Source: Squalus acanthias (taxonomy: Eukaryota). From it: a stretch of 64,000 bases of DNA. The translations under genes were made by a program, and so were the position numbers. Within the stretch, counting starts at the first letter, position 1. Every line of letters starts with the position of its first letter. The notes beneath the pieces are model-generated. The model did no database searches. It saw only the letters and a program-made list of their open reading frames with translations, and had not been told where the DNA came from. The DNA lies in contig CM059432.1 of assembly GCA_030390025.1 (NCBI GenBank), positions 62,932,001-62,996,000 of the forward strand, written 5' to 3'. Positions 25,583-57,990 of the stretch are shown in pieces.

Positions 25583-27298
25583 CAACAACAACAACCACTT
25601 GTATTTATTTAGCACCTTTAACGTAGTAAAACGTCCCAAGGCGCTGCACAGGAGTATTTTAAGACAAAAAGTTTGACACCGATCCACACAAGGATAAATT
25701 AGGGCAGGTGACCAAAAGCTTGGTCAAAGAGGTAGGTTTTAAGGAGTGTCTTAAAGGAGGAAAAAGAGGTAGAGAGGCGGAGAGGTTTAGGCAGGGAATT
25801 CCAGAGCTTAGGGCCTAGGCAACAGAAGGCATGGCCACCAAAGGTTGAGCGATTATAATCAGGGATCCTCAAGAGGGTAGAATTAGAGCAGCGCAAATAT
25901 CTCGGGGGTTGTGGGGCTGAAGGAGATTACAGAGATAGGGAGGGGCGAGGCCATGGAGGGATTTGAAAACAAGGATGAGAATTTTGAAATCGAGGCGCTG
26001 CTTAACCAGGAGCCAATGTAGGTCAGTGAGCACAGGGGTGATGGGCGAACGGGACTTGATGCGAGTTAGGACACGAGCAGCTGAGCTTTGGATGATCTCA
26101 AGTTTACGTAGGGTTGAATGTGGGAGGCCGGCCAGGAGTGCATTGGAATAGTCAAGTCTAGAGGTAACAAAGGCATGGATGAGGGTTTCAGCAGCGGATG
26201 AGCTGAGGCAAGGGCGGAGACGGGCGATGTTACAGAGGTGGAAGTAGACGGTCTTTGTTATGTTGCGGATATGTGGTCGGAAGCTCATTTCAGGGTCAAA
26301 TATGACACCAAGGTTGCGAACAGTGTCGTTCAGCCTCAGACAGATGTTAGGGAGAGGGATGGAGTCAGTGGCTAGGGAACGGAGTTTGTGGCGGGGAACG
26401 AAAACAATGGCTTCAGTCTTTCCAATGTTTAATTGGAGAAAATTTTTGCTCATCCAGAACTGTATGTCGGACAAGCAGTCTGACAATTTAGATCCCATGG
26501 AGGGGTCGAGAGAAGAGGTAGTGAGGTAGAGCTGGGTGTCGTCAGCGTACATGTGGAAACTGATGCTGTGTTTTCGGATGATGTCACCAAGGGGCAACAT
26601 GTAGATGAGAAATAGGAGGGGGCCAAGGAAAGATCCTTGGGGGACACCAGAGGTAATGATGTGGGAGTGGGAAGAGAAGTCAATGCAGGTGATTCTCTGG
26701 TTATGATTTGATAGATAAGAATGGAACCAGGCGAGTGCAGTCCCATCCAACTGGATGACGGTTGAGAGGCGTTGGAGAAGGATGGAGTGGTCAACCATGT
26801 CAAAGGCTGCAGACAAGTTAAGAAGGACGAGGAGGGATAATTTACCTTTGTCACAGTCACAAAGGATGTCATTTGTGACTTTGATGAGAGCCATTTCGGT
26901 ATTGTGGCAAGGGCGGAAACCTGATTGGTGTGATTCAAACATGGTATTGCGGGAAAGATGGGCATGGATTTGGGAGGCGACAACACGTTTAAGGACTTTG
27001 GAGAGGAAAGGGAGGTTGGAGATGGGGTGGTAGTTTGCAAGGACGGAGGGATCAAGGGATGGTTTTTTGAGGACGGAGTGATGACGGCAGATTTGAGGGA
27101 GAGGGGGACAGTACCTGAGGAGAGAGAATCGTTAACAATATCAGCTAACACGGGAGCCAGAAAAGGAAGTTGGGTGGTCAGCAGTTTGGTGGGAATAGGG
27201 TCGAGGGAGCAGGAGGTGGGTCTCATAGACAAGATGAGCGCAGAGAGATCATGAGGGGAGATCGGAGAGAAACTGGAGAAAGATGTGAGTTCAGGGCT
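25583..27298 (-). mobile_element. L2-clade LINE (5'-truncated RT, (GTT)n tail)
   Basis: CSLDPIPT, QSGFRPCHNTE, LSAAFDMVDH, GVPQGSFLGP, YADDTQLY, SRLDYSNALL, LHWL..KQR, FKTLLKTYLF; the tail appears as (AAC)n on the + strand. Confidence 0.93.
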
Positions 27299-31159: not shown

Positions 31160-32117
31160 GGGGGGTAATTTTAATCCCAAAAACAGGTGGGTTGGGGTCG
31201 GGGGGGAGGCTAAAGAGTTAAAAAACTGAATCCTGACCCCGACCTGACTCCAACCTGCCTGCCACTTCCGGTTTTAATGGAGGCGGGACGGGGCGGGCAG
31301 CCAACCCGCTCGCAGGAGGCGGGTCGCCCATTTAAATATTATAAGGAGGCTGGCGTGCCTCATGGTGATCCACCATTTCAAATTTAATTGTGGGCAGGCA
31401 GGTTTCCCTGGCATCAGGGATCCCTGCCAGCTAATGGAAGGCGAGGACTGCTGGATCCAGGAGGTAAGTGCCTTTCCACTTACCTCCTGGATCCAGAGTC
31501 CCTGCCTCAGCAACCCCCCGTGATCAGACACCCCCGCTGGCTCTTCCGATCTCCCCCCGTCCTCCCCCCGAGGACTCCGACCACGCCCCCCGTGAGGCCT
31601 GCGATCCCCCCCGCCCCCCACGAGTCCTCCGATCTCCTGCCGACCTCACCCCCCCACCAAGGCTTCCGATCCCCCCTCTGGCCTTCGATCATTGGCCCCC
31701 GGTCCCCGAACCCTTTCCAGCCTCTGATCCTCCCTCCGGCCCCTGACCTCCCTGTTCCAGCCCCCATTCACCTTGCCGGCCTCCTCCTCCGGCCCCAATC
31801 CTCCTCCGGCCCCGATCGTCCGGCCCCGAACCTCCCCCAGGCCCCGACCACCCCCCGATCCTCCTGTGACCCCGATCTGTCCCTTCCTCCTCTTTGCATC
31901 CTAGTGCCGTAGGCCTACCCGCCCAACAGCCAGCCAGCCTCTCCATATGGCTGGCTGTGGGCGGGAAACAGAGCATTGTTAATCAGGAATGTTAATCAGG
32001 CCCTGCCGCTAAGTTCAGCAGGGCCAGCGGGAAACCCGCTCTCCCAGGTTTCCCGATCACTTTCTAGCCTCCCCCCCCCACCGGCTCCCTACCTGCCTCC
32101 AAGTTAAAATTGCGGCC
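31160..32117. mobile_element. Harbinger-type MITE with internal C-rich degenerate tandem repeats
   Basis: Ends GGGGGTAATTTTAA ... TTAAAATTGCGGCC; many CCCCCCGATC-like units at 31500-31880; TSD unclear. Confidence 0.7.
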
Positions 32118-34780: not shown

Positions 34781-35427
34781 AGTTGCACCAGTGCACCCAT
34801 ATGGCTCCAAGGTGCTACACCAACACCTGCCCCCCCCCCGCCCCCCACCAACACCACAAAGCAGTCTTAAAATGACCAAAGCATTCCTGTCAACCAAACA
34901 GCTATTGCTCGAGGTTAAGTAATGTCTCACCATTCACTCCAAGTGACAAGGCCACTTCCCAGGTAACAGGCAAACATGGACAAGACGGGAAAGTAGTGTA
35001 AAAAATAAATTTATGTGCATCATAAATGGAACTGAAACTTAACACTAAGATTTTGGCAATCACCCTTGTGCATCTACGATTGTGTCATTTTTCTTTTCTG
35101 AGGGCTTCTACGAGGTGCAACCCCTGTGACTTCAGCAGAGGTAGAGGCAGGCTGCTCACTTCCCTGCTGCGACTGTTTCAACACAGCAGTCACAGCAGGG
35201 AAGTGAGCAGCCTGCCTCTACCTCTGGGTCCTCTGGGTTTTAGGGCCTGTGAGGGCCCCACCAAAGACTGCTCCTCCTGCAACTGTGCAGGGGCAGACAC
35301 AGCCATCAGGATCCAAGGCAACATGTGGGGCTCTGACTGAGGGGGAGGCAATGGGGGAGAAGTGGGATCACTTTGAGCAGAGCCCTCACTTCGATGTACC
35401 CTCTCACCATCATCCCTCTCATGGGCC

Positions 35428-37150
35428 TGTAGGACGTGCGGAATTACCCCTCGCCCCGTCTAACAGGTTATAAATTTTGGACTTGAGACTTATGAGAAAT
35501 TAAATCAGACACACGGGTTCTGTCTTTAACCTTTTATTGTTCCTAAGACAAATTCAAAACCCCAACCACTATTCGAGCAGTACACCAATAATATTACAAG
35601 AAATCATACTTATAACCACCCACAGATGATCCGTCCAGCATTGATTGTAGGTCACTTCCTTTTGACTGCAGCTCTTCGCCTTTCGACTGCAGCAGCTCTT
35701 CGAGTTGAAATGATCAGCCAGGCCCCTCCTTCCGACTGCAGTGCTGATATTTTTAGTCACTGGTTTTTATACAGTTTTACTATTTCAGTAAATCAATCAT
35801 TCAGAGATGGTGAGATGTTCCTTTAATGTTCGACCTAAGTTGTTTGAGCTGTCAAACTTTCACACTCACACATCCTGTGTGGCTACCTGTTAGCTGCCTT
35901 TATCAAAGCCCAAAATTGTTCATTCACTCATATAAGTTTACAAAAGTGGCAGTAAACCACTTGGTCACATTTCACGTGTTACGTCGCATCCTGTATTTCA
36001 GAACTTCAAAGGTTTGACTCCTCCCCTTTAGCCACCAAAAGTCGTTCTACAAACTTGTGGCCTGTTTTGTTGTAGACACGAAGGGCTGGATTTTGAATCT
36101 GGGGTCGGGTTGGGGTCGGGAATCACACATTCTGGCTTGTGAACCCGCCTCCATCGAGATGTGGCCAACGCACTGTATTTTCCCTTGATTGACCTTGTTG
36201 AGCCCGCCCAGTGGGCTCAGCAGGCCAATTAAGGGCCACCCGACAACAGGTGACGTCACAGACTGACATTTCATCTGTCAAGAGCTTTTGACAGATGAAA
36301 TATCAGCGTTTGACAGCTCTGTGAAGCTGTCAAACACTCACAATATGATTTCTAACTTCAGTCCTTCCTCTCAGGCTGAGTTAGAAATCATTCCAGCACA
36401 GAAAACAGAAGGCTGCAGGTTTTGACAGACCACGGCTTTCCTGCTTTCTGTGCAGGTGAGATTTCTAACTCCCGAGAACTGAAGGGTTGACACCTGCAGG
36501 AGGAAGTTAAGGTAAGTAAAACTTTTTTCAACACTTAGCACTTACCTTACACACTTACCTCTGCACCCATCACTCACCTGCCCACCGGACATATCGACCC
36601 CTCCAACCCCTGCAGACCCACGGCCTGCCCCGATAACTTGGAGTGGTTGCCACCTGTCAGGAAGCCCACACTTTTCTTTTTAAAATAGTGATTATGCAAA
36701 AAACTGCCTGTTAACTACCTGTTAACAGGCAGTTAATTGTCACTAATCCCTTCCCGCCTCGGGGAGTTGGGTCTCAGAACAGGTTGGGTACCCGCCGCCA
36801 GAGAAACTGGCATGGAGGCGGGTTGGAGGCGGGATGGGGTCGGGACCCCCGAATCTGCAACTTTAACCGCCCCCCCCCCCCCCCCCCTGCCTCCAAACCC
36901 GACTCCACGGGTCATTGAAAATCCAGCCCAAAATCTGCAAATCTAAGGGGGTTTGTTTATCTCTGTTGTCTATGACTACTCCCTGCAGTCACAACCATGT
37001 TTGCTGCCTTTTAGTAAAGCACATTCCATGTCCACTTATCAGTGAAAGACCATCTGTTACAATTTTATTTCACTTCAAAAAAACCTTTTGGCCTGGCAAA
37101 GCATTTTAATATATACCAAAATTAAAATTAATGGTCTATGTATACCTACA
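35428..37150 (-). mobile_element. Solo LTR (probably Gypsy/Ty3-type) interrupted by a MITE
   Basis: TGTAGG...CCTACA termini; 4-bp TSD GGCC/GGCC; minus-strand AATAAA near 35534-35539; flanking Myb exon is colinear across it. Confidence 0.85.
36083..36929 (-). mobile_element. Harbinger MITE (family 2, related to Harbinger B end)
   Basis: TIR GGGCTGGATTTT ... AAAATCCAGCCC; near-TSD GAA/AAA; one end nearly identical to the reverse complement of 52225-52330. Confidence 0.9.
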
Positions 37151-39399: not shown

Positions 39400-39730
39400 T
39401 CATCTAGAGCCATCCTTTGTTTCTTAACCTGTCCCATTATCATCTCCTTTTGCCTTGAATATCTCTTAATATCTCTTAACCTCTCCTGCCTTCTATCCTA
39501 TCACAGACCTTCCCTTTTGTTCTTTCATCCCCTCCCCCCTTTCCCAGCCCCTACACTTGCTTAAAAATCTGTTCCATTTCCTGCTTTTTTCCAGTTCTGA
39601 CGAAAGGTCATCGACCTGAAACGTTAACTCTCTTTCTCTCTTCACAGATGCTGCCTGACCCGTTGAGTATCTCCAGCATTTTCTGTTTTTATTTCAGATT
39701 TCCAGCATCTGCAGTATTTTCTTTTTGTAC
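39400..39730 (+). mobile_element. Penelope-like element 3' terminus (second family)
   Basis: Pyrimidine-rich UTR, hammerhead motif, then CAGATGCTGCCTGACC...CCAGCATTTTCTGTTTTTATTTCAGATTTCCAGCATCTGCAGTA. Confidence 0.7.
39593..39629 (+). ncRNA. Minimal hammerhead ribozyme motif
   Basis: AGTT-CTGACGA-A-AGGTC-ATC-GACCT-GAAA-CG-TT-AACT: stem I, conserved core, stem II, palindromic AACGTT in place of stem III. Confidence 0.75.
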
Positions 39731-41251: not shown

Positions 41252-42927
41252 TGCAACCATCTTCAGCCAGAAGTGCTGAGTGGATGATCCATCTCGGCCT
41301 CCTCCTGAGGTCCCCACCACCACAGAAGCCGGTGTACAGCCAATTCGATTCACTTCACATGATATCATGAAACGACTGCGCACACTGGATACAGTAAAGG
41401 CTGTGGGCCACGACAACATCCCGGCTGTCGTGCTGAAGACTTGTGCTCCAGAACTAGCCGCACTTCTAGTCAAGCTGTTCCAGTATAGCTACAACACTGG
41501 CATCTACCCGACAATGTGAAAAATAGCCCAGGTATGTCCTGTCCACAAAAAGCAGGACAAATCCAATCCGGCCAATTACCAGCCCATCAGTCTACTCACA
41601 ATCATCAGCAAAGTGATGGAAGGTGTCGTCGACAGTGCTATTAAGCAGCACTTACTCACCAATAACCTGCTCACTGATGCTCAGTTTGGGTTCCGCCAGG
41701 ACCACTCGGCTCCAGACATCATTACAGCCTTGGTCCAAACATGGACAAAAGAGCTGAATTCCAGAGGTGAGGGGAGAGTGACTGCCTTTGACATCAAGGC
41801 AACATTTGACCAAGTGTGGTATCAAGGAGTCCTAGTAAGATTGAAGTCAGTGGGAATCAGGGGGAAAACTCTCCACTGGCTGGAGTGATACCTAGCACAA
41901 AGGAAGATGGTTGCGGTTGTTGGAGGTCAATCATCACAGCCCCAGGACATCACTGCAGGAGTTCCTCAGGGCAGTGTCCTAGGCCCAACCATCTTCAGCT
42001 GCTTCATCAATGACCTTCCCTCCAACATAAGGTCAGAAGTGGGGATGTTTGCAGTGTTCAGGTCCATTTGCAACTCCTCAGATAATGAAGCAGTCCATGC
42101 TCACATGCAGCAAGACCTGGGCGACATTTAGGCTTGGGCTGATAATTGGCAAGCAACATTCACTTCACAAAGTGCCAGGCAATGACTATTTCCAACAAGC
42201 GAGAGTCCCTTGACATTCAATGGCATTACCATCGCTGAATCCCCCACCATCAACATCCTGGGGGGTCACCACTGACCAGAAACTTAACTGGACCAGCCAT
42301 ATAAATATTGTGGCTACAAGAGCAGGTCAGAGGCTGGGTATTATGTGGCGACTGTCTCACCTCCTGACTCCCCAAAGCCTTTCCACCATCTACAAGGCAC
42401 AAGTAAGGAGCGTGATGGAATAGTCTCCACTTGCCTGGATGAGTGCAGCTCCAACAACACTCAAGAAGCTTGACACCATCGAGGACAAAGCAGCCGCTTG
42501 ATTGGCACCCCATCCACCACCTTAAACATTCACTCCCTCCACCACCGTCGCACCATGGCTGCAGTGTGTACCATCTACAAGATGCACTGCAGCAACTCAC
42601 CAAGTCTTCTTCGGCAGCACTTCTCAAATCCCGCGACCGCTACCACCTAGAAGGACAAGGGCAGCAGGCGCATGGGAACACCATCACCTGCAAGTTCCCC
42701 TCCAAGTTACACACCATCCTGACTTGGAAATATATCGCCGTTCCTTCATCGTAGCTGGGGCAAAATCCTGGAACTCCCTCCCTAACAACGCAGTGGGAGT
42801 ACCTTCACCACATGGACTGCAGTGGTTCAAGAAGGTGGCTCACCACCACCTTCTCAAGGGCAATTAGGGATGGGCAATAAATGTTGGCCTTGGCAGCGAT
42901 GCCCACATCCCAGGAACGAATAAAAAG
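41252..42927 (+). mobile_element. CR1/L2-group LINE, RT pseudogene with intact 3' end
   Basis: Same family as 5178-6876; [23 protein letters not shown]; ends GGGCAATAAATG...CCCACATCCCAGGAACGAATAAAAA. Confidence 0.92.
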
Positions 42928-45411
42928 AAGACGTCAGTCTCAAAGGCTCAATGGCCACAAAGTACATAACAGAAGCAATAACATTTATTAGAAAGATATT
43001 GGGGCTGATTTTCCTGTCCCTCCTGTTTCTGAGTGCTAGTCAGGCTGAGTGCACCCAAGGTGTGCCTGATCCCACCTGAATTTGTGGGTTCAGGTAATTT
43101 GCTTGGCCTCAACATGCACCTTGTGCAGGTCCGACCCCTGCAGGTGCCTACATCCAGAATTAGGGGCAGGAAGCTTGAGAGTCCTGCAGCAGTAGGAATG
43201 ACCACTGGCCATGGAGCCTTCTGGCTGATTTCTAAAAAAACAGCAGCCACAAGGCCTCGAGTCCTGAGGATACAATGGGTCCATGCAAAAACAAAAAAGC
43301 CACTTCTCTTTTTAGGCTGCCTTTGCCTTGTTGTCTGCAACTTTCAGACTTTCTGATCTGACAGTAGTCCAGTCACAACTTCTTTATATGTGCCTGTGCC
43401 TGAGTGCCCTTCTGACGAACCTAGAGAAGAACGAGGTGGGAAGGCTGGGAACACCCCCTCCCACCCCATTTCTATGTCTGTCCTTAGTCTGCGTCTATTG
43501 TAGGTGAAGGCACTCTAAACCATGCCCCTCCCCAGGTCCCAGAAATCATAGGGCAACATAAATGAGTCAGGATCTATCCCCTGGTGTCACGTCTCTGGGA
43601 GTAAGCAATCCCCAGGCACATAGCACAGGAAAATGTTAGAATGTAGGTTAACAGCTATAAATGAATGTGTTCCTGAGCAGATGTTTTATGCTGTTTGCAT
43701 TCTGGAAATGGCTGATATTAGTATAATTTTTTTTATTGAGAAACCAGGGTTAATGACCAAGACCTAGAGTGGTACAGTTGACAAAATTATGTTCCTGATG
43801 CAGAACGTCACTCAACAGGAGCACATACTGGCAATTCGGGCCTGGGCGTCGGCCTGTTCCATGCGATCTTCTGCCAATTAAAAGTAATGGAGGGAAAATC
43901 ATGCAGGCAGACTGACACCCACACCTGAATTCCCGGTCTGTGCACCATAGTGCAGGATAGTCCCAAGTAGTGGTAGCTTGGGTTTTCCAACCCTGTAGAT
44001 TGTTGGAGCAATGGAAGACTGAGGTAGATAAAGAGTTCCATAAATTTGAAATTCTGGGAAAGAAAGGGTTGCATTAGAAGATAATACAATTAGTTTTAAT
44101 TTTGACGCAGTAAGGGTACAGTGAGAAGGAAAATCACCCAGGATAGTCTATTCACAGCTTAGGAGGAATGTGAGGAAAGTTTAGAGAAGTACTGGGCATA
44201 GTAGCATTGACAAAAGAGGCAAGCAACAATGGTGAGGGGGAGAGAGAGAGAAAAAGAGAGAGGTTTGATGCAAGAAATGAGAGTGGTCACTAATAAGACA
44301 ACAAACATTTTCCTCTTACGATTTACTTCTGCATGTTGCTGCCAGTCATTCGTTTAGGGAGATCTCCTGACTTATTGGAGTGGTAGGCAATTGTGCCTTC
44401 CGCTACTGATTGCCCCAATTTTAATGTTATAATTTCACTGCATAATAAACATTAGGCAAAATAGTTAGCTAGAGAAATGCATGTCAGGTGGATTCTGTCC
44501 ATTTTTGCACCTGTGATGAGAAAAGGGAAGATTTTGTACATATGCTTAGCTGGGCTGCTATTCATTGTTGTTATGTTGTGTATAAAACCACAACATATTC
44601 ATAAATCATCTTCACTGTTAGTCCTGGTGCCAATGAGAGGCCTGGTCTGTCATAGATCAGCTGATTTTTTCCCCTTAGTTAAGTCTGGTTGAACATGAAA
44701 CACAAAGCTGAAATTCGCTCTTTGACTTATTGACCTACAATCAATTACCAGGGGATCACTGCAGTGAAACAGCAGAAGTGTCACAAACTGAATGTTTAAA
44801 CATTTAGAAGCATGATTATTTGAACAAGCAAATGCACTGCTAATAAAAACAATAATCACTGTACCCCATTCTGACTGGACTAGATTAACCGATAAGGCAC
44901 AGTTGTGGCTAATTAATTATTATTGTGACGTCTTTTGAATTATTTTGCTTTTCAGTTTTGACAGGGTCACTGTATTGTGGTTTGGTGCATGCTGCTGTAT
45001 TGTTTATATGTAACATTCAGTTTAAAAGAATAATAACTTTGTCACAGAAACACCCTTTCCACTGACCTTTTCATCATGGATTCAGGCCAATTAAATGTTT
45101 ATTCAGATAGGCCTTTGCTGTGAGACAAAGAAGTCAAAAGCTTAATGATTTGCAAAGAGAGTTCTATTCTGCCTTAGTCTGACTGTTTATATAATCAAGG
45201 CATTCCACAGGACCTCACGCTCAGGCCTGTCTAACTCTTTTCAAGTGGAGCTCACAATTTTCACTGTTTCAGTTATACCTGCCAACAATTAAAATTCAAA
45301 AAAGAATGAGACTGGTGGATATGATATATGGAGATGCCGGTGTTGGACTGGGGTGGACAAAATTGAGAGGTCGCACAACACCAGGTTATAGTCCAACAGT
45401 TTTATTTGAAA

Positions 45412-45449
45412 TCACAAGCTTTCGGAGCTATCGCTCCTTCCTCAGGTGA
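45412..45449 (-). ncRNA. Minimal hammerhead ribozyme motif (minus-strand copy)
   Basis: Exact reverse complement of 45457-45494. Confidence 0.8.
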
Positions 45450-45456
45450 AGTGACT

Positions 45457-45494
45457 TCACCTGAGGAAGGAGCGATAGCTCCGAAAGCTTGTGA
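45457..45494 (+). ncRNA. Minimal hammerhead ribozyme motif (plus-strand copy)
   Basis: TCAC-CTGAGGA-A-GGAGC-GATA-GCTCC-GAAA-GC-TT-GTGA; palindromic AAGCTT replaces stem III. Confidence 0.8.
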
Positions 45495-45997
45495 TTTCAA
45501 ATAAAACTGTTGGACTATAACCTGGTGTTGTGCGACCTCTCAATTTCGGATATGATATAGCCATGGTAAGGTGATGCAGTGTGTGTTTGGGGGCAGGGGG
45601 AGGGTGGGGAGGGAAGGGGAGGTAATGACATGATAATGAAACTATCTTGGTTCATTCAATTTAAAATTAAATGTAGCCACCCCCTTCCCCATACCCCTAA
45701 GGAAAAACATAATCCCTATAACTCCCAGACAGATCAAAACGTTAAAAACCACAATTAGATAAAATAAAGTTTTCAGAAAAATGACATTTTCTTTCTCATA
45801 TAAAGATCATGACAGTTTGCAATTTTCCCATTATGTAAATTTGTATTAAAAAAAATCTAATTTAGGTTAAATATCATGTAGACTTGCCTCTTAAAGTCAA
45901 AGCCTGGAATAACTGGAGAAAAACATGTATTTTTTTTAAAAAGCTGCCAATCTGGAATATAATCAGAAAATATTGGAAATACACAGCAGGTCCCTCA

Positions 45998-47669
45998 TGT
46001 AAGGGGTTTTGTCGTGCTTATATCACAGACGGTGCTGGTGCAAGGTTAGGCCTTCGTTGCCTAATACTATTGCTTGCTCTGGTCTCCGGCCAGCCTTGTT
46101 GCAATAAACACCTGTGAGTGGTTCGACCCACTCGCCCTTACGGTTCTAACACTGGACTTAGGTGCGAGAGCAGTAATGCAGAGAAAAACTCAAATAGACC
46201 CGGTTGAATAGTACGAAATGGAAATCTTTATTGCATAGCGTCCAAGATCATGAAGTACATGTCATAGGCGCAAATTAACGAGAGTACAAGTATACATACA
46301 TTCATAAAGCTTGGTCTATGGTAATGAAGAACGCACGGCACATCGTAAAAAGGGGAACACATTATACTTTATCCTTAATAAAACCACCCTCCCCTATCAA
46401 TACCTACACTACATCTACATTTGTAGGATCGGGAAACATGCTCACCACTCGTGATACTTCGGAGAATTTTAAAGTGAGGCACTCGGCTCGTTTCGCTGCA
46501 GCGCCTGACTGTCACGTGTTTGGAGGGGTCTCTGTACCCCACTTGTTTATCTTTGCTGCTGCGACAAGCAGGCCGGGCTCCCCGTTGTCATGAAGAACTC
46601 GACAGAACTCGGGCACGGTTGTAGAATTCAAAGAAAAGTCTTCCTGTACCGACACCAGTTGTCGGTAGAATTCAATGAAGAGTCTTTCTTGTTGTTATGA
46701 GGAATTCGATGGACCCAAACCAGTTCGTGCAATAACCCGTAGAATTCAAGAAATGAGTTCTATATTTTCGGGCGCGGTCGGGGTTTACTGATCGTGGCGG
46801 CATGTGGATTCTTCTTCTTTTCTTGTCATTTCGTCTTGTCTTTTTGGGCCTTCGGGTCCAGACACCGTTTACCGACTCTCGGGATGGTGCACCCGGTCAC
46901 TTGCCCTTGTCGAGGCGGCTCGTTCCGATTGAGCTCCACCCAACATTCGAAGTCGAATCAAAAGTACAGCAGTCAGCAGTGAGATAAGAGAATAAGAGAC
47001 GATTCGAGCGAATAAGAGCCGAAAATCAAGAGACCGATGGATATTTGTTCACTATAGTTATAGTGCTGTGTTCCCTTATCTCCCGCCCAAATCTTAATGT
47101 TTGTCTTTTGTATAATATTGGCGCTCAAAACTCCCAGCGTGGGGCGATTCTTTCCTTAACGGGTTTCGGTAGTACCTGAAACTGGCCAACTACCCGTTAA
47201 TGTTTTCCCCATTGTTGACCCAGCCAGGATTGTCTCCCTGACTGGTTTTGGGGGCCCCCGAATACTCGTTTAATCACCCGTCGATGTCTCTCTCATTGTA
47301 GAGCCGTGGGGGTATTTGTGTATTGATGTGTCTGGATGGGCCTTCGATTGCCCAGTACAATGAACCTTACTTGTGCATGGAAAACGATTCCAGCACTTAT
47401 ATCTTTTGCTATTGTCACAAATGCAAACAGGTTGCATCCTGTCTTTATCAGTGTTTATCGAGTATGATCCCGTCTTATATTGAAATGTTTATTCGAACGC
47501 CATCTTGTCTGCCCACTGTAATTCTGGAAGCTTCTGCCACGATGCGCGGTGGCCATTTTACAGGCTTCTGTGTCCTTTATATCATGACAGCATTTCGTTT
47601 AAATAAACCGATCAAACGAATCTGCTTCTCTTTTGTTATTTTGAATCGCGATAATTGCGAAACTTTACA
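45998..47669 (-). mobile_element. Solo LTR (1672 bp)
   Basis: TGTAA...TTACA termini; TSD CTCA/CTCA; minus-strand AATAAA near 46227; internal GTAGAATTCAA repeats; sits in a degenerate Penelope-terminus remnant (about 45938-47800). Confidence 0.88.
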
Positions 47670-49140
47670 CTCAGCATCTGTAAAGAGAAAAGACAGGATA
47701 ATGTTTCGACTGGAGAGTTCTGCTGAAGGAGCCAAGCCCAGAATGCTATTAACCTGCTCCTGATGCACCTACTGTGTATTTACAGCATTTACCATCTTCA
47801 CTGCCAGTAATGTCCTTGCTTAAGCTTTGGCCACACATCTGACTGAGGTCTATAGCTGACGTACTTTCTCATGGAGGATCTTTCACAAATTTCAATGTAT
47901 TATGGGCTACACATAACATAATATTCTGAGCTTACGCATATAGAAGACAAATTGATAGCAATGGGCTAAAATTATGCTTTTTCAAATTAGGGAAAACTCA
48001 GAATTGTGAGAATATTCCGATTGATTGAAGAAGGGAAAACTGCAAATTCTATCTTCAAATTGTGAGGGTTAGCAGATCTAACTGTCTCGTAGCTTTGAAA
48101 ATAAACACAGCTCCATATTTTTAAATAGATTTATTTAAAATTTGCCCCATCCTATGCTTGTAAAATCTAATGCCTCATAATTCATTGAGTTGGCATCTAA
48201 GAGGACACTTTAGGCTTAATCTCTGCCCTGGTTACACTGTAACAGAGTTAAACTCAAAAACCTTGTTGTAACTATAAACTTTATATAGGGGTGATTCTGA
48301 GATAGGGTCTGCCAAGTGAACTTTGTATTATATATCACTCATTCTACATTCATACAAGCACATCAACTCATCCCTCTGACCATGGGACATGTGTTTATAT
48401 AACACCAACAACAGGGGTGCTGTAAGTTTCCAGGCTACAGATTGCCAATGTAATGACTTTCAGGTGGGAAGTGGTGTAAATTCATACAGCCTGACGGCCG
48501 CCCTCGGGATCAGGTAAGTGGTGGGACCCTGCGATCGGGGGTGAGGGGGAGAGGGGTGCGGGGGGGGGGGGGGGGGAGGTGAGATTCCGGCAGGGGAAGC
48601 TTAAGCTTTCCTTGTGGGGCCTGGAGGAGCCCACTATAGCAGCTCATTATAAAAGGGGAAGTGATGGTGGGGGACAGAAAAGATGCCCAATTGTTCAGAA
48701 TGGCACAGCGGAGATGAGGCCAGCAGTGCTATTTTTGTAGGGTTCTCAAAATTCCCACATTCCCCAGAGTTATTAATAAGGGGTACCCTAGACAAAGTGG
48801 CTTCTAGACCTCGTGGCAGAAGCCTGCGACATTGAACAGAAACCAGGGCCCTGCAAAAACAGCAAGCCAGGTGACATGCCTGGGTCTGTAAGAGAGTTGC
48901 AAAATTCCCAGACCCCCAAAAGACTCGGAGGAAAAGAGAGAGACCCTAAGAAAAGGGGACTTGGGACATTTTAAAACCAATTGAGTGTATTGGACCAGGG
49001 ACATTTTAAAACATGCCTGGGCAGACCTCAGTACAGAGCTCCGAAAGCTCGTAATTTTAAATAAAACTGTTGGACTATAACCTGGTGTTGTGCGACTTCT
49101 CATTTTTGTCCACCCCAGTCCAACACCGCATCTCCGCATC

Positions 49141-51819
49141 ATGACCACTATTGACACCACAAACTGCCGGCGCAAAGTGGAGAGAATCTCCAAGAAGATC
49201 ACGCATATTGACACAGACATCAAGTATCTACAGAGATGTAAGAAAGCAGACAAGATTCCGAAAGGACTACAGATCACGAACCCACTCAAGTCGACATACA
49301 ACACAGACTACGCTGAGAGACTTTGCCGTCGTACCTCTCGCACACTCCTCAACCATCTCGTACACCAGCTCTACAGCAGACGCCGCAACCTCGAAACCAA
49401 GATAGAGTCCATGCTCTCAGCCTGTGCTCAGGACACAGCAGACCAGCTACGAGACACCGCCAAATAGACGAGGCAACGGAACTACGCTTCCTACATGCGC
49501 ATCAAGAACAGGAAGCTTGAGAAACTCGGCATCACCACCAGCAGCAACCAAGCCTCCCCCAGTACCACGGTTGCAACCACAGGGAAGTACATCGTCAACC
49601 TGTCGGACCACACCCTTCAACCAGACGAAATCGAAGTTCTCGCCCTAGGGCTCAAGTTCTGCCCCACCACCAAAATGGACCCCATCGGTCTTGCGGCAGA
49701 CACAGAGGAATTCATCAGGAGAATGAGGATCCGGGAATACTACCACAAATCCCAAGATGTCAGCAACAAACCCAATGAGACAATCAATGATCCGGAACAG
49801 CAGACAGAGGGAACCGCAGTGCAGCAACCGAAGAAGAAAGAGTCAAATTGGACCCCTCCGGAGGGTCGCTGCCCTAAGTTTGACATGTATGCTCAAGCTG
49901 TCAGGAAATGCATTAACGCCAGATTCCTCAGCCGCACTCACAAGACAGTCCAGAATGTCACCCGAGCACAACGCAATGCCATCCACGCTCTCAAGACCAA
50001 CCCCAACATCGTCATCAAACCAGCGGACAAAGGAGGAGCCATCATCATACAGAACAGAATGGACTATTGCAAAGAAGCATACCGACAACTGGACAACCAG
50101 GAACACTACAGACAGCTACCCGCAGATCCGACCAAAGAACACACCCGCCAACTCAATAGACTGATCAAGACCTTCGATCCAGACCTTCAAAGCATCCTAT
50201 GCACTCTCATCCCACGTACTCCCCGCGTAGGAGACTTCTACTGCCTCCCAAAGATACACAAAGCCAACACACCCGGATGTCCTATCGTATCAGGCAACGA
50301 AACCCTGTGTGAGAACCTCTCTGGGTACGTCGAGGGCATCCTGATACCCATCGTACAGGGAACCCCCAGCTTCTGTCGCGACACTATAGACTTCTTACAG
50401 AAACTCAGCACCCATGGACCAGTTGAACCAGGAACACTCCTCGCCACGATGGACGTATCGGCACTCTACACCAGTATCCCCCACGATGATGGCATCGCTG
50501 CGACAGCCTCAGTACTCAACACCAACAACAGCCAATCTCCAGACGCCATCCTACAACTCATCCGCTTCATCCTTGACCACAATGTCTTCACCTTCGACAA
50601 CCAGTTTTTTACCCAAACACACGGAACAGCCATGGGGACCAAATTTGCACCCCAATACGCCAACATCTTCATGCACAAGTTCGAGCAAGACTTCTTCGCT
50701 GCACAGGACCTCCAACCAACGCTGTACACCAGATACATCGACGACATCTTCTTCCTTTGGACCCATGGCGAAGGATCACTGAAAAGACTACACGATAACA
50801 TCAACAGGTTCCATCCCACCATCAAACTCACCATGGACTACTCCTCAGAATCGGTTTCATTCTTGGACACATGAATCTCCATCAAAGACGGACACCTCAG
50901 CACTTCACTCTACCGCAAGCCCACGGACAACCTCACGATGCTCCACTTCTCCAGCTTCCACCCTAACCACGTTAAAGAAGCCATCCCCTATGGACAAGCC
51001 CTGCGAATACACAGGATCTACTCAGACGAGGAGGAACGCGATGGACACCTACGGACGCTGAAAGATGCCCTCGTAAGAACGGGATATGACGCTCGACTCG
51101 TCGATCGACAGTTCCGACGGGCCACAGCGAAAAATCGCATAGACCTCCTCAGAAGGCGAACACGGGACACAACCAACAGAGTACCCTACGTCGTCCAGTA
51201 CTTCTCTGGAGCGGAGAAACTACGCCATGTTCTTCGCAGCCTTCAACATGTCATCGATGACAACGAACACCTTGCTAAGGCCACCCCCACGCCTCCACTA
51301 CTTGCCTTCAAGCAGCTGCCTAACCTCAAAAGTACCATCATTCGCAGCAAATTACCCAGCTGTCAGGAGAACAGCGACCACGACACCACACAACCCTGCC
51401 ACGGCAACCTCTGCAAGACATGCCAGATCATGAACACAGATACCGTCATCACACGTGAGGACACTACCCACCAGGTACATGGTACATACTCATGTGACTC
51501 GGCCAACGTTGTCTACCTCATACGTTGCAGGAAAGAATGCACCGCGGCATGGTACATCGGCGAGACCATGCAGACACTGAGACAACGTATGAACGGACAC
51601 CGCGCAACAATCGCCAGGCAGGATTGTTACCTCCCAGTCGGGGAACACTTCAGCAGTCAAGGACATTCAGCCTCGGATCTGCGGGTTAGCGTTCTCCAAG
51701 GCGGCCTTCGAGACACACGACAACGCAAAATCATCGAGCAGAAACTGATAGCCAAGTTCCGCACCCATGAGGACGGCCTCAACCGGGATCTTGGGTTCAT
51801 GTCACGCTACAGAACGTGA
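49141..51819 (+). pseudogene. Penelope RT + GIY-YIG endonuclease ORF (892 codons, two in-frame stops)
   Basis: One frame across three listed ORFs; IKPADKGG, FYCLPKIHK, MDVSALYTSIP, GTAMG, RYIDD, SFLD, VVYLIRC...WYIGET..RQRMNGH, GLN; stops TAG 49465-67 and TGA 50872-74. Confidence 0.95.
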
Positions 51820-52055
51820 CTCGACATCGTTGACTGTTTTTCCAGTTTTTAAAAAAAAGAAAAAAAAGGTTAAAAGCTTAACTGCAGACGGCAGCATTTG
51901 ACACGTTGGACCCCCTGTGACCCACCTCATTGTCTAACTGTACTCTGATGTGTCTTTGATGTAATGCCTCCCTAACAGATTGTATCTCTGCAGACACATT
52001 GTTCTCTGTATATATATATACTGTGTAATCGATTTGTATTACTTCACTGTACCTG

Positions 52056-52090
52056 TACCTGAAGAAGGAGTGGAGCTCCGAAAGCTCGTA
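52056..52090 (+). ncRNA. Minimal hammerhead ribozyme motif in Penelope 3' pLTR
   Basis: TAC-CTGAAGA-A-GGAG-TGGAG-CTCC-GAAA-GC-TC-GTA. Confidence 0.78.
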
Positions 52091-52224
52091 ATTTTAAATA
52101 AAACTGTTGGACTATAACCTGGTGTTGTGCGACTTCTCATTTTTGTCCACCCCAGTCCAACACCGACATCTCCGCATCAGTACAGGCTGCCAAAGGAGGC
52201 GGTGCTGGCCTCTACAGAGACAAT

Positions 52225-52646
52225 GGGCTGGATTTTCAATGACCCGTGGAGTCGGGTTTGGAGGCGTGTGGGGGGTTAAAGTTGCAGATTCGGGGGTCCC
52301 GACCCCATCCCGCCTCCAACCCGCCTCCACGCAATTTTGATAAAATCATGTGCGGTGTTCCCGACTCCGTCCCGCCTCCAAGAGGCGGGAGAGGCCATTA
52401 AAGCCCTTAACAAGCCCTAAATTGGCTCTGTAATGCCATTTTGAAACGTTTGAGCTAGTTTAACCCTTTTCCGACGTGAAGGGCGCCTGATGTGAAACAC
52501 TCCAGTGAAACCTGGCGGGAGCACAAGTGAATAGCTGACTATCAGCTGCAGGTCCACTATTACAACGGAGATGTGATGAAGGTAGTAGTAGTATTAGGTC
52601 TGAAAGTCGCCTCTGATGCTGCTGAGACTGCCTGGCCTTTGCTGTG

Positions 52647-52686
<40 letters not shown>

Positions 52687-52959
52687 CTTAGAGCTGCTGC
52701 TCATTTTGCATCCAGGTCCTCTCACACCAAAAGCCAGGCAGTCTCTGACCTGACCTGCAATGCTGCAGCAATGATGACATCATCAGAGGCGACTTTCAGA
52801 CTGAAAACACTAATTGGTTCATGGGTTCCCACATGCTGGAACTCAATTGCCCAATTAAGTGAAAATTGCATCAATCTCCCACATCCAAATGCAGTCGGGT
52901 GGATAACACGAAATGCGGATGACACGACCCCAACCCGCCCCAGTATCAAAATCCAGCCC
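52225..52959 (+). mobile_element. Harbinger MITE (family 2), left part homologous to Harbinger B left end
   Basis: TIR GGGCTGGATTTT ... AAAATCCAGCCC; TSD AAT/AAT; 52260-52580 aligns with 22410-22730. Confidence 0.92.
52650..52684. repeat. (CT)n microsatellite
   Basis: About 17 CT units. Confidence 0.95.
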
Positions 52960-54706
52960 AATGTTGTATATTACAGGTGGTCGACCTGTCTGGGGAACCG
53001 GATGACCCCACTCCAGCCCATCAAACTGCTTAGCATTTATACAAAGAAGTAAAGGAATGGAGTCCTCACCAAAACTCCAGGCATATCAGGAAAACATGAA
53101 TAAAACAAGCCCAAAAGCCCAGTCTATTCATACCAAGGCCCAGTTTCGATGGCCCGAAACTCATCACAAATGAACAACCATCAGACCAGCAATCATCGTT
53201 AAAGGCCATTCTCCTGCCATTAAAGTTAACGACCTTAACGAGCCCACCAGAATTAAACAAAGCACTGGGAAGATTTGGCGGGCAGATAAGGAACAATCCA
53301 ACAGTATAACTATAGACCTGTGCTGGGACAAGCCAGTTCTACAGAGACGAGAGGCTGGAACAAGCCAGTTCTACAGAGAACAGAGATTGCAAGGCAGAGC
53401 ACTGACTGGCAGTTTTGCAGACTAGCAGATTACAGCAAGAGAGCTACGGAACACGGAACAGCAAGGCCAAGCAGACTGCAGTCGACCGAAGCAAGGACGA
53501 AACCGACCGCATCAGCGGATTCGCAAAGACTGAGCCTGGAGAGCCGCTGAAGTTTTCTGCCACGTACAGCGTACGGCAGCCACCATCCAACACATCGAGC
53601 GAATCCCAAAACCACGACCGGCTTAATCGACAGGATTCGACCTGTCCAGAGACCCTTATTGGTGAGCATGATCCCTGGCCCCTCACAGCACACTTAGTTA
53701 GATATGGGTAAGGGGATTAAGACTGTGATTTTTCTCTCTCGATGTGCCGTGTGTTCCCCATTCCAATTTATGTGTATTTTAGTAAGCCTGTAACTATTCC
53801 AGTAATTTTTCAGTGTTGTATCGTTCATAAAATAAATACGAGTTTCTTGTACCAAACCAGTCGTCTACTCCAATTCTGTATCGCCGCCTGTACCTAAGTC
53901 CGGTGTCTAGAACCCAGGGGTGTGGGAGCGATTCGAACCGCTCAGGAACCCAGTCAGAGGCGAACTGACTACACACACGCCACCCCCTACATTTTGGATG
54001 TTGATGAGATGGTGATTATGCTGCAAGAGGTGCACCAAAGGAAAGTGTCCCTATTGTGAGCCAATGACCACCATCCAGTAAAAACAAAGGTGCCCGATAT
54101 TTGGAGGTGGGGAGGGGGGGTTGGCGGCAGGGAAATGCTGAATGAGTCAATGCAGTCACGCAGCTCCTTCCTGCTGAGGGGCAAAGACAGATGTGGATAA
54201 GCAGACACTGACTACAAAACACTGCTGTTCTGGCTGCAGATGAAGGATAAGTTTGTTAGAAGATGACAGTTCTCCTCAGATTTGCTCACCTTCCTTGTGG
54301 GGCCCATCCATTATGGCACAAATTTAAGTTGGGAACTAGCATGCTCTCTGGGAAATACCAAGTCAAGCATTTGTGTCCAACTCTGATACTTTTTTATGGT
54401 GACAGATGCTGAGGCTACCAGTCCAGGGACCTCCTTGTTGCTTGGGGCTTTCTCAGTGGGGTCAGCGCCCATTGATGTAGAGGATAGGCTGCTTTACTAA
54501 CCAGTTTTCCTCTTCCTTCACAGAATGCGGGTACTGTGGAGTGCTGCACAATGAAGGTTCCTGGCTGATTACTGGATAACAGCCATTGGCATGTACAATG
54601 ATGTTTTGGTGGTCAGTTCACATGTGACAGTTAATTGTGTGAAAACCCTTTCTCTTCTGAAGGCCATAAGGTTGATATGAAGATTCTATAGCCTGAAACA
54701 TGGACA

Positions 54707-54737
54707 TTATGTATGCATTATGTATGCATTATGTATA
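54707..54737. repeat. 11-bp tandem repeat (ATTATGTATGC) x about 3
   Basis: Direct reading. Confidence 0.85.
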
Positions 54738-54738
54738 T

Positions 54739-55046
54739 TGTCTTTCGGATGAGATGTTAAACCGAGGCCCCATTTGCCCTCTCAGGTGGATGTAAAAGAT
54801 CTCATGGCATTATTCGAAGAAGAGCAGGGGAGTTTTACCCGGTGTTCTGGCCAATATTTCTCCCTCAATCAACACCACTAAAACAGATTATCTGGTCATT
54901 ATCTCATTGCTGTTTGATGCACCTTGCTGTGCACAAATTTTCTATTATACAACAGTGGCTACACCTAAAAAAAAATACTTAATTGGCTGTAAAGCGCTTT
55001 GGGATGTCCTGAGGTTGTGAAAGGCGCTATATGAATGCAAGTCTTT
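54739..55046 (+). mobile_element. Deu-domain SINE, 5'-truncated
   Basis: GGATGAGATGTTAAACCGAGGCCCC...GAAGAAGAGCAGGGGAG...GTAAAGCGCTTTGGGATGTCCTGAGGTTGTGAAAGGCGCTATATGAATGCAAGTC. Confidence 0.9.
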
Positions 55047-55848
55047 GGGGGAAAAATTCATGTTCGCCAGCAAAGTTGCCGCAGTTAACGGCCGCTGGAA
55101 ATGGCCGCAACGCTAACCAAGTGAAATTGGTCTGTGGGGCATGGAGATAGGTGGCACAGCGCTCACCTTCGTGCAACGCAATCCTGGTGGCATTGCTGGA
55201 GGGATCCGGGACGAAGTTTCTGTCCAGGTCCGGCGTTGCAGTTTCCCACAGCCTCTGTGAGCGAAGCTGTGGAGCTTGCAGGGGACTGTGGTCAATGGAG
55301 AGGTCTGCGATTTAAAGGGGCCATGCACACTGAAGCAATACAAAATAAAATGCAGTGAATCAATACATTTTTCAGCCCTTTCTGCCTTTTAAGAAATATT
55401 CAATATTTAAAAGATGTTCTAAATGTGAATATTCAGCTGTTAAAGCTGAATTACCTTCCTAACCACAACAGATGAGAAAACTGCCTCAGCAATAACACAA
55501 ATGGCTCAGCAAGGCAGGGAAGGGGCACCGAGGGTCTCACACGCAGCACTCCAGCTTTGTGCAGGGGGTCAACACTGCAAGAGCGGCCCTCTACCCAAAG
55601 GGTCCAGGAGGCCCTCCAGAAAGAACGATGTGGGAGTACATCACTAAGGCTGTCACTGCCAGCAGTGTCGCCCCCACCACCTGGCTCCAGTGCCTAAAGA
55701 AGCTTCATGACCTCAGACCACAAAGGGGGAGACGAACATGGTGGCCATTGCGGGACCCACCGCCAGCTGGTGAAAGAGCGGCGGCCGCCATTTTTATCAT
55801 CATTTCATGGCGCTATGAAGTGGCGATGAGTACATGAATTTCTAGCCC
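55047..55848 (+). mobile_element. Harbinger deletion derivative retaining a Myb exon 1 remnant (55501-55715)
   Basis: TIR GGGGGAAAAATTCATG ... CATGAATTTCTAGCCC; TSD TTT/TTT; MAQQGREGAPRVSHAAL...WEYITKAVTASSVAPTTWLQCLKKLHDL. Confidence 0.85.
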
Positions 55849-56234
55849 TTTTTTCTTTCAACCTGTCTTGGGCAGTGTACTCCAGACACCCACAGTCCCA
55901 TGCCTGATTTTACAAATTGAGTCAGCGAAATCGGGGCTTTTTGTCTTAGAAGAGAAATTTCAGTGACAAAGTTTTAGAAATTTGATCGCGCCTAATGAAG
56001 CCAGTGGCCGGATCATGGGAAATTGGTCCTCCGGCTTCATTAGTATATTACCAGGAAGTTGTGGGTGCCAGTCGTGGCCCCAGAGGCAACTCACTAGTCG
56101 CAGAGGGGGAGTACGAATGACTGGCTGGGACGCCGGCCGAGGGCAGCAAGTAAGACTTGAGGGGGGTGGGGGGTGGGGGGGGGGTGGAATGGTGAGACAA
56201 TTGGAGGGGGTGAGTATAGGACGGCAGCTCTTAT

Positions 56235-56370: not shown

Positions 56371-57990
56371 AAGCTCCTCCTGGCTCCACATTCAGGTAAG
56401 CATAAAATTTGGTACTTACCTTTTTTGGTGCTGGCCTCCAGTGGTCCCTTTAAGAACCACTGGTTTAGCAGCTGTCCGCCCGAGAAAACTGACCGCAGCA
56501 TACACGGTGCTTTCCGCACTCAGTTGCAATTCATTTTGGAAAAGGGGCCTGAAACAGGCATTAGGCCCCCGATTGGCATAGGTCATGGGCCTAACGCCTG
56601 TTTCAGGCGGGTGTCCTGGACGAGTATAAGGCGCCCTAACCAATATGGCGCGCAGCACACTTCCAGCATGTGCCACCGTGCGCCTTATTGGACACTTTAG
56701 TGTCCGTTACTTGCCCAAAAAATGGGTGCTGCTCAATCGAATCTCTAGACCAAAAAGTCAGTGTTTGGTTTTCCTCATGAGTTTTCATCTGCTTGAAACA
56801 CATTACCGGCATCAATCAGTTCCCGCAAGTAACGAGCACGGGCCTGCATTCCAACCCTTGGGGTGCCCTTCATGCTCTCAGAAAGCTGGCTTTTCCAAAA
56901 TCAATACTGAAATTTTCTGTGATAAAGTACATGTGATAAAGGGAACACAAACCTACTTTTAATTAAATTCAGCTCCAATTACTTTCCAAGTTCTCACTCT
57001 ATCTAGAAATTCATATATTTTGCCCCTCCACCTGCTTATATTCTCCCACCTCTTATTTCTATCTTTTCCTGTTTGTTTTGTCATTGTCAAACTATTCTTT
57101 TCTTTAACTTTACTTTCTAACATTTATTTGTACTTTGGGAAATCAAGTTCCCCCTTAGTTGAACATTTTACAAATGTTATGAACAAACTTGCTGTAGAAA
57201 TGGCTAAAAACAAAAGCTGTGAATGCTTGAAAACTGTTGTGGTTTTTCATGAGGTATCATAGCTGTCACAGTTATTGCAGTGGAAATTAGTGCAATGTGT
57301 TACTTGGGTACTGTATTTGTAAAATGCAACTCGCTTATGAACACTTGATAAAATTAAATCCCTATAATTTTATGAGGACAACTTTTAAGTCTGCAGGTCT
57401 TAGGGTAGTAGTTCTCATTAAATATTATTACTAACACCTTTACCAGTAGACAGCCAAATGACAGACAGGCATGACATATATTATATGCAGCTGTTTGGAT
57501 TGGTATCTGAGAGACTTAATGGTGTCTGTTATAGCCATAGCCATACACTATAGTTCACTGTCGTTCAAAAGGCGAGATGAATGCTCTTACCTCAGTGAGT
57601 TGCTACTCAAAGCAACCTTGCTGGATTGCTCATCAAGTTATTGTACAAGAAATAATATTTGTCAAGGAATTAAGACTACAAGTCAATTGGAGAAAACTAG
57701 TTGTGCTATTCCCAAGATATAGCAGCCATTTGCAGTCAGTACCTGGCCTGCTGGAGAATACCTTCTCACTCATCTTTCAAAGTTTAATACAGGAGCAGTC
57801 ACATCTTGAATTCACGTATATCAAGACTGATGGCAGCTGTCACCTTCATATGGCTGGATAAAAGAGAAAATAATACTATATTGTATTTTGATGTGACATA
57901 CCTTTCACTATGTACCATTAAAATGCAGAAAAGTGTTAATCCCTAACTTGAGAAATGTGGGGGAAAAATATTAAGCACTTACCAGACCAG

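What the first reader, a model, noticed from the sequence alone, without database searches (positions are those of the whole stretch)
45329..45547. Perfect 187-bp palindrome carrying two back-to-back hammerhead ribozyme motifs, inserted as one unit
Seen: two identical 93-bp arms around a single G (45453), a 12-bp TSD (GGATATGATATA), and a complete minimal hammerhead (CTGAGGA / stem II / GAAA-GC-TT) in each arm. The sequence is homologous to the pLTR of the Penelope 3.5 kb downstream but is a distinct variant (different stem II loop). Established: Penelope-like elements carry minimal hammerheads that act as dimers and often leave inverted pLTRs. Inference: this 219-bp ORF-less unit is either a template-switch by-product or a non-autonomous ribozyme retroelement. 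Read-through from either strand would give a long hairpin (possible Dicer/ADAR substrate) that sequesters the ribozyme, and the DNA could form a cruciform. No arm mismatches implies recent origin or gene conversion.
Basis: partly seen in the sequence, partly recalled or inferred. Interest (0 to 1): 0.72.

Follow-up and report, generated by a model that had tools for sequence, protein, structure and literature searches.

The report
Back-to-back Penelope retroelement stub
This perfect DNA hairpin is a real, short leftover insertion of a known kind of jumping gene (a Penelope-like retroelement), laid down as two mirror-image copies of its ribozyme-bearing end; the pattern is already described, and the main added interest is that such mirror joints seem to recur at almost the same spot.

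Summary
In detail: 93-bp perfect arms around G45453, a 12-bp target duplication, and a minimal hammerhead motif in each arm. The 219 bp are 31-nt tail + arm + G + arm + C, all from the pLTR end of an abundant Penelope-like family (89% like the neighbouring element). Head-to-head inverted pLTRs with a tail at one end and a TSD are the published Penelope insertion pattern. Each arm points as a first-strand cDNA primed from one target nick would. Contigs from two DNA studies hold the left junction, and show other centres at the same base (-1, -2, +3) and inverted joints with arms of other lengths. That favours fresh formation at each insertion over a self-copying palindrome, though no genome was held to count loci. 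The two hammerheads lie on opposite strands, so one transcript carries one, buried in a -186 kcal/mol hairpin; cleavage is untested. The centre lies 37 nt upstream of the cut site and about 0-11 nt from the inferred transcription start, suggesting short run-off cDNAs (inferred). The scan reported the same kind of element before on other DNA, this genome included.

The parts
45317..45328 (.). Target-site duplication, left copy (12 bp, 9 of 12 A/T)
   Evidence: flank-to-tail junction 45150-45353 in one contig with 0 differences in each of two DNA studies (table 8)
45329..45359 (-). 31-nt PLE 'tail' (22 of 31 A or C), on this arm only; ends just short of the family's ORF start
   Evidence: loose ends with long unrelated flanks pile at 45329 in all 4 runs laid (41, 30, 56, 12 contigs; table 7)
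45360..45452 (-). Left arm: 3' part of the pLTR, sense on the minus strand
45412..45449 (-). Minimal type-I hammerhead motif in the left arm (mirror of the right one)
   Evidence: hit at -45445
45453..45453 (.). Central unpaired G: native upstream base or non-templated addition, not decided
   Evidence: other contigs have -1, -2 or +TCT here (table 4)
45454..45546 (+). Right arm: identical tail-less pLTR part, sense on the plus strand
45457..45494 (+). Minimal type-I hammerhead motif: stem I TCAC/GTGA, core CTGAGGA plus extra A, stem II GGAGC/GCTCC, GAAAGCTT; predicted cut between 45490 and 45491
   Evidence: activity not tested
45547..45547 (.). One extra C at the tail-less junction (the long arm has T at this place)
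45548..45559 (.). Target-site duplication, right copy
49037..52176 (+). Neighbouring related PLE (not the donor): truncated 5' pLTR, RT + GIY-YIG ORF 49141-51819 with two in-frame stops, full 3' pLTR with hammerhead motif and tail, 9-bp TSD (49028-49036, 52177-52185)
52009..52045 (+). TATA run and initiator match (+1 at 52041) in the neighbour's full pLTR, 18 nt upstream of its hammerhead core: inferred family promoter
   Evidence: only 1 of 28 TATA loci in the window has an Inr 29-32 nt downstream, and it is this one; chance about 4-7% per locus

Best explanation
A young, dead-end insertion made by the reverse transcriptase/GIY-YIG endonuclease of a Neptune/Nematis-type Penelope-like element, with the mirror half built during this insertion. 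Shown: TSD, pLTR origin, head-to-head orientation, tail on one arm only. Inferred steps: (1) the endonuclease nicked both strands of an AT-rich site 12 nt apart; (2) reverse transcription started inside an uncleaved element RNA at the tail end, close to the RNA's 5' end, so the cDNA was only about 124 nt long; (3) the second arm came either from a second cDNA primed at the other nick from the tail-less start site and end-joined to the first (I give this about 0.45), or from the first cDNA turning back on itself with the hairpin opened at the tail-less site (about 0.35); (4) the stop point is probably set by the RNA's 5' end or a structure just upstream of hammerhead stem I, so centres recur within a few bases but differ in detail. 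The hammerheads are passengers: a read-through RNA from either side forms a 93-bp hairpin that buries the one sense copy.
For: Geometry: from each TSD copy the strand running inward reads antisense from a pLTR 3' end, as two target-primed first strands would. Tail of 31 nt on one inverted pLTR plus TSD is the layout given for Adineta Pen2a (PMC3846280 passages) and called typical in PMC8557442. The Anolis PLE nicks and extends both strands, starts at two internal sites that bound the tail, is predicted dimeric and uses uncleaved RNA (PMC11167929). In one search, long loose ends pile at the tail end (45329, 4 of 4 runs) and at 45354-45366 (3 of 4 runs among rows shown), the two outer ends of the unit. 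Centre variants at 45453: -1 (X4 3 contigs, X1 1), -2 (X1 1), +TCT (1 each in X4 and X1). 8 of 11 listed joints have one boundary at 45450-45456 while the other arm ends anywhere from 45361 to 45417. The centre is 37 nt upstream of the predicted cut. Hairpin -186 kcal/mol, z -28.7.
Against: No genome was held, so no loci, centres or TSDs were tabulated, and no empty site was seen. Some centre and joint contigs are deep: -1 at 84x the unique-flank depth in X4, -2 at 17x in X1, joint 45399>45456 at 15-17x in both; this fits a hot spot but also amplification of ready-made inverted units. Only 30 nt of the right arm were laid, which biases joint detection toward 45450-45463, and 3 of the 8 clustered joints have unknown letters between. 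The transcription start is inferred from the neighbour (18 nt upstream of the core) and from loose-end consensuses of other subfamilies (about 13-14 nt), while the centre is 7 nt upstream; this subfamily's own leader is unknown. Perfect arm identity in a varied family (2887 of 8987 contigs laid in X4 were 99%+ alike) needs one source RNA type or fold-back. 3 of 11 joints end within 2 nt of the cut site (p 0.013, post hoc), so not all templates need be uncleaved. The in vitro work is on a Poseidon-clade element, not this clade.
Confidence: 0.82

Rival explanations
1. A self-propagating non-autonomous family: a palindromic unit is transcribed whole and re-inserted by the PLE enzyme in trans, passing on its centre.
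For: Single contigs with a centre variant or inverted joint at 15-84 times single-copy depth. pLTR sequences alone can be moved in trans (PMC3846280 passage). Retrozymes derive from PLE pLTRs (bioRxiv 10.64898/2026.07.22.740005).
Against: At least four centre forms and many arm lengths in one species. No promoter and no sequence downstream of the tail end, which the Anolis enzyme needed. The RNA would be a 93-bp hairpin. No tandem repeats, which define non-LTR retrozymes.
Confidence: 0.1
2. The palindrome arose after insertion by DNA repair (template switch or inverted duplication of a single pLTR stub), or the arms were made identical later by gene conversion.
For: Perfect arm identity; some 'skip' joints could be deletion products of palindromes, so DNA-level change does occur or may occur.
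Against: The 12-bp TSD brackets both arms exactly, and the second arm ends where other family insertions end; a later repair event would not be expected to respect both.
Confidence: 0.05
3. Sequencing or assembly fold-back artefact.
For: Perfect palindromes can arise from chimeric long reads (own knowledge).
Against: A fold-back read would mirror the flank, not resume after a 12-bp direct duplication with a one-sided tail. The left junction is in contigs of two studies, of which either may be the source. Centre variants occur in both.
Confidence: 0.03

Closest known systems
Inverted-pLTR insertions of canonical EN+ Penelope-like elements (Arkhipova et al. 2013, PMC3846280; Craig et al. 2021, PMC8557442; passages read)
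   Same: Head-to-head inverted pLTR, 31-nt tail on one end only, TSD of about 10 bp, palindrome at the inverted junction, heavy 5' truncation.
   Different: No ORF at all: both copies are under 125 nt, and both stop at the same base, giving a perfect 187-bp palindrome.
[quoted passage not shown]
   Same: Core boxes, extra base between positions 9 and 10.1, G10.1-C11.1, palindromic 15.2-16.2, short helix I. The paper already notes dual motifs 100-700 bp apart on opposite strands.
   Different: The two motifs here are 16 bp apart at their core starts; helix II is 5 bp, against 7-8 bp in the Schistosoma families. Sharks were not named in the parts read.
PAc, Poseidon element of Anolis carolinensis (Frangieh et al. 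2024, PMC11167929; parts 1-2 of 4 read)
   Same: Two internal start sites bounding an AC-rich tail, AT-rich target, both strands extended, uncleaved RNA as template: all fit the anatomy here.
   Different: The neighbour carries the CX4CxxC linker of Neptune/Nematis; its hammerhead and tail lie upstream of the ATG, not inside the ORF. The paper's main text as read does not explain inverted products.
Non-LTR retrozymes (PMC7229834 passages; bioRxiv 10.64898/2026.07.22.740005 part 1 of 5 and passages)
   Same: Non-coding, type-I hammerhead, derived from a PLE pLTR.
   Different: Retrozymes are head-to-tail tandem repeats with hammerheads on one strand; this is one head-to-head pair that cannot release a monomer or circle.

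Membership tests
EN+ PLE insertion (inverted pLTR type) | Sequence derives from a pLTR of an RT + C-terminal GIY-YIG element | tested here: met
   110 of 123 positions identical to the neighbour's pLTR; neighbour ORF has RVT_1 hit E 5.7e-09 and, by eye, GLKF, DKG, YIDD and a GIY-YIG-like motif with two cysteines; Pfam gave no endonuclease hit
EN+ PLE insertion (inverted pLTR type) | Inverted 5'-truncated copy adjacent at the 5' end (head to head) | tested here: met
EN+ PLE insertion (inverted pLTR type) | 30-40 nt tail at one end only | tested here: met
   31 nt, 45329-45359; family ends pile at both boundaries (table 7)
EN+ PLE insertion (inverted pLTR type) | Variable-length TSD, empty site with one copy | tested here: inconclusive
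   12-bp direct repeat present; empty site not seen, the one relative laid had no cover at 45150-45317
Neptune/Nematis clades | CX2-5CxxC linker upstream of GIY-YIG in the autonomous partner | tested here: met
   CHGNLCKTC in the neighbour ORF against the definition in PMC8557442; no tree built, so Neptune versus Nematis is not decided
PLE minimal hammerhead | CUGANGA, GAAA, UH boxes with helices I and II | tested here: met
   single-arm fold gives helices I and II, but z only -1.76; Rfam hammerhead models did not match
PLE minimal hammerhead | Extra base after A9, G10.1-C11.1, palindromic 15.2-16.2 | tested here: met
   A, G-C and AGCT present; criteria from PMC4209133
PLE minimal hammerhead | Compensatory changes across copies | tested here: inconclusive
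   One double change in helix I (C-G versus T-A) and a C-G versus T-G change in helix II between arm and neighbour; two sequences only; no core variant listed at 2% table 3
PLE minimal hammerhead | Self-cleavage as a dimer | not testable with these tools
   Cofold of two 44-nt monomers gave an intermolecular stem II, not the helix III dimer; energy models do not score the catalytic core
Non-LTR retrozyme | Two or more head-to-tail units, each with a same-strand hammerhead | tested here: not met
   One head-to-head pair, motifs on opposite strands
Non-LTR retrozyme | Linear and circular monomer RNAs | not testable with these tools
   only contigs of guessed-RNA runs were on offer
Self-propagating non-autonomous palindrome family | Many loci with identical centre and ends but different TSDs | tested here: inconclusive
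   No genome; contigs show several centres, some at 15-84x single-copy depth, not tied to loci

The most novel reading that the evidence does not exclude
A subset of these hammerhead-centred palindromes is a self-copying non-autonomous retroelement family, moved whole by the PLE enzyme and passing on a fixed centre; the contigs at 15-84 times single-copy depth would be such lineages. A milder new claim, which I put at about 0.35: the centres mark the 5' end of the pLTR-initiated RNA, so these stubs are paired 'strong-stop'-like cDNAs that record how Penelope inverted repeats form.
Probability: 0.1. Interest if true: 0.65.

Novelty: new member of a known kind. Interest (0 to 1): 0.24.

Why it matters
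As a single locus it is an ordinary Penelope insertion. Its value is as a clean record of an unsolved step: how PLEs make head-to-head inverted ends is still open in the papers read (PMC8557442, PMC3846280, PMC11167929). If centres across this genome sit at the transcript's 5' end and outer ends at the two start sites, thousands of such stubs would let one choose between double priming and fold-back from sequence alone. Perfect 93-bp hairpins are also plausible sources of double-stranded RNA and of DNA fragility (own knowledge, not tested).

Tried and rejected
Own genome: none held. Pattern scans for other loci found nothing: centre pattern in metagenome contigs 0; conserved pLTR 23-mer in viral, metagenome and genome contigs 0, 0, 0. 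Rfam miRNA matches (4 of 6 over the palindrome) rejected as generic hairpin hits below gathering score. No RNA holder on record was listed; the guessed-RNA run X17 had no cover on the flank and almost none on the right arm, which I do not use as evidence. Empty-site test in organism B failed for lack of cover. Idea that the centre equals the hammerhead cut site: rejected, it is 37 nt upstream. Idea that the neighbour is the donor: rejected, 13 of 123 positions differ. Idea that the centre is exactly the transcription start because the neighbour's Inr begins with the same 7 letters as the arms: kept only as a possibility, since by alignment those letters sit 11 nt further from the core in the neighbour. 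No host exon was recognised by eye among 64 frames of 70 aa or more in 42800-56000 (not searched against families). Dimer cofold was uninformative. Earlier-findings look-ups by sequence and by one word set returned nothing. Literature searches listed no paper on shark PLE palindromes or on a fixed centre near the transcription start; subscription papers and Repbase reports are outside the library, and supplements were not read.

Full report
Observation. The palindrome is as described: arms 45360-45452 and 45454-45546, 93 nt, fully complementary, G45453 between. The next longest perfect inverted repeat in the window has 20-bp arms. The 12-mer GGATATGATATA occurs only at 45317-45328 and 45548-45559, with a chance of 1.7e-7 per pair of positions. 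The 219 bp between are 31 + 93 + 1 + 93 + 1: a tail on the left arm only, and one extra C at the right junction.

Origin. Read on the minus strand, the long arm is the 3' part of a Penelope-like pseudo-LTR and matches the element at 49037-52176 at 110 of 123 aligned positions. That neighbour has an ORF of 892 codons with two in-frame stops, an RVT_1 match (E 5.7e-09) and, read by eye, GLKF, DKG, YIDD, CX4CxxC and a GIY-YIG-like motif with two cysteines. By the definition in PMC8557442 (passages) the linker places it with Neptune or Nematis; I built no tree, and Pfam gave no endonuclease match. It is a relative, not the donor. The host looks like a shark by earlier scan notes and by my recall of the repeat; I did not test this.

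Hammerheads. My descriptor gave 4 hits in the window: one in each arm, one in the neighbour's 3' pLTR, one at 39597 from another family. The arm motif meets the listed traits of PLE minimal hammerheads: extra base after A9, G10.1-C11.1, palindromic 15.2-16.2 (PMC4209133, parts 1-2 of 4). Between arm and neighbour, one helix I pair changes on both sides and one helix II pair on one side. Against this, Rfam gave no hammerhead match among 6 hits at E up to 1, and the 47-nt fold has z only -1.76. The motifs are on opposite strands, so a transcript holds one, preceded by its own complement, in a hairpin of -186 kcal/mol (z -28.7). Such motifs did not cleave as monomers and cleaved weakly as dimers in the cited paper. 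I expect none from the whole unit; this is inference.

Is it real, and is it alone? No genome is held and four pattern scans found nothing. Of 22 runs listed for 44700-45460, five from two studies of one organism hold all 75 sampled words; any of these may be the source of the window. I laid 4 of the 22 on 45150-45483, which has only 30 nt of the right arm. In both DNA studies one contig joins the unique flank to the tail with no difference (depth 9.6 and 19.2). Summed depth over the arm reaches 6-8 million, so the family is very abundant, though summed depth is no copy number. Long loose ends pile at 45329 in 4 of 4 runs and at 45354-45366 in 3 of 4 among the rows shown (281 rows were not shown). 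These are the unit's two outer ends; earlier notes report a Tx1 target in this tail, which may add to the 45354 pile (unchecked). The right junction and an empty site were not seen.

Centres. Contigs with other junctions at base 45453 exist: one letter fewer (3 contigs in X4, 1 in X1), two fewer (1 in X1), three more (1 in each, at 3.1 and 3.3 times flank depth). Of 11 distinct joints listed, 8 have a boundary at 45450-45456, with the other boundary spread from 45361 to 45417. So inversions recur just upstream of hammerhead stem I, with varied detail. Caveats: the short right arm favours detection there, 3 of the 8 have unknown letters between, and the kind of 3 of the 11 joints is not given. 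Some forms are deep (84x, 17x, 15-17x flank depth), which a hot spot or a propagating lineage could both give. Three of 11 joints end within 2 nt of the mirror of the cut site (p 0.013, post hoc), a weak hint that cleaved RNA is sometimes copied.

Mechanism. From each copy of the TSD, the strand running inward reads antisense from a pLTR 3' end, which is how two target-primed cDNAs would lie. The Anolis PLE nicks and extends both strands, starts inside the RNA at two sites that bound the tail, prefers AT-rich targets, is predicted to be a dimer and mostly uses uncleaved RNA (PMC11167929, parts 1-2 of 4). Here the centre is 37 nt upstream of the cut site, so the template was uncleaved. The neighbour's full pLTR has a TATA run with an initiator 30-32 nt on, the only such pair among 28 TATA loci in the window, 18 nt upstream of the core; similar pLTR promoters are described in PMC3846280 (passages). 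The centre is 7 nt upstream of the core. I infer that priming near the 5' end of a pLTR-initiated RNA gives short cDNAs that run to about its end, and that two are joined, or one turns back. Perfect arm identity in a varied family favours fold-back or a single source RNA; the second arm's end at a family-wide boundary favours double priming or cutting there. PMC3846280 proposes self-priming for such junctions. I cannot separate these.

Self-propagation. The unit has no promoter and nothing downstream of its tail, whereas the Anolis enzyme needed RNA to +172 with a main start at +111-118 (a different clade). It fails the tandem criterion of retrozymes. With the varied centres, I put a self-copying family at about 0.1.

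Novelty. An inverted truncated copy, one-sided tail and TSD are described as typical, and close opposite-strand hammerhead pairs were noted in 2014. Six searches listed no paper on this shark-type family or on a fixed centre near the transcription start; supplements of the papers were not read and may hold such cases. Earlier notes of this scan reached the same reading on other DNA, including this genome; they are unchecked AI notes, and one pointed me to PMC3846280. Verdict: real, correctly spotted, a new member of a known kind; interest 0.24.

Noticed in passing
window 52009-52066: TATA run plus initiator match 18 nt upstream of the hammerhead core in the neighbour's pLTR; the only such pair among 28 TATA loci in the window.
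   Followed up: partly
joint 45399>45456: An inverted joint at 15-17 times single-copy depth in both DNA studies, letters between not known: an amplified inverted unit or a subfamily with inverted ends; unexplained.
   Followed up: no
joints from 45414, 45415, 45417: 3 of 11 joints end within 2 nt of the predicted hammerhead cut (mirror 45415), p 0.013 post hoc: possible trace of cleaved RNA being copied in vivo.
   Followed up: partly
window 39589-39632 (+): A second minimal hammerhead motif of a different family (ACGT palindrome, 5-bp stem II), with no inverted partner found.
   Followed up: partly
window 45354 (run X1): 17 contigs with long loose ends inside the tail; may be the Tx1 target site that earlier notes report for this genome.
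   Followed up: no
window 35136-35226, 31439-31507, 36255-36314, 36378-36471, 56547-56608, 52591-52808: Imperfect hairpins (72-92% complementary) with no hammerhead hit; probably old non-autonomous DNA transposons.
   Followed up: partly
window 5710-6450, 21020-22213, 25869-27131, 22872-23771, 59129-59668: Three more RT frames (RVT_1) and two DDE_Tnp_4 (Harbinger-type) frames; the window is dense in repeats.
   Followed up: no
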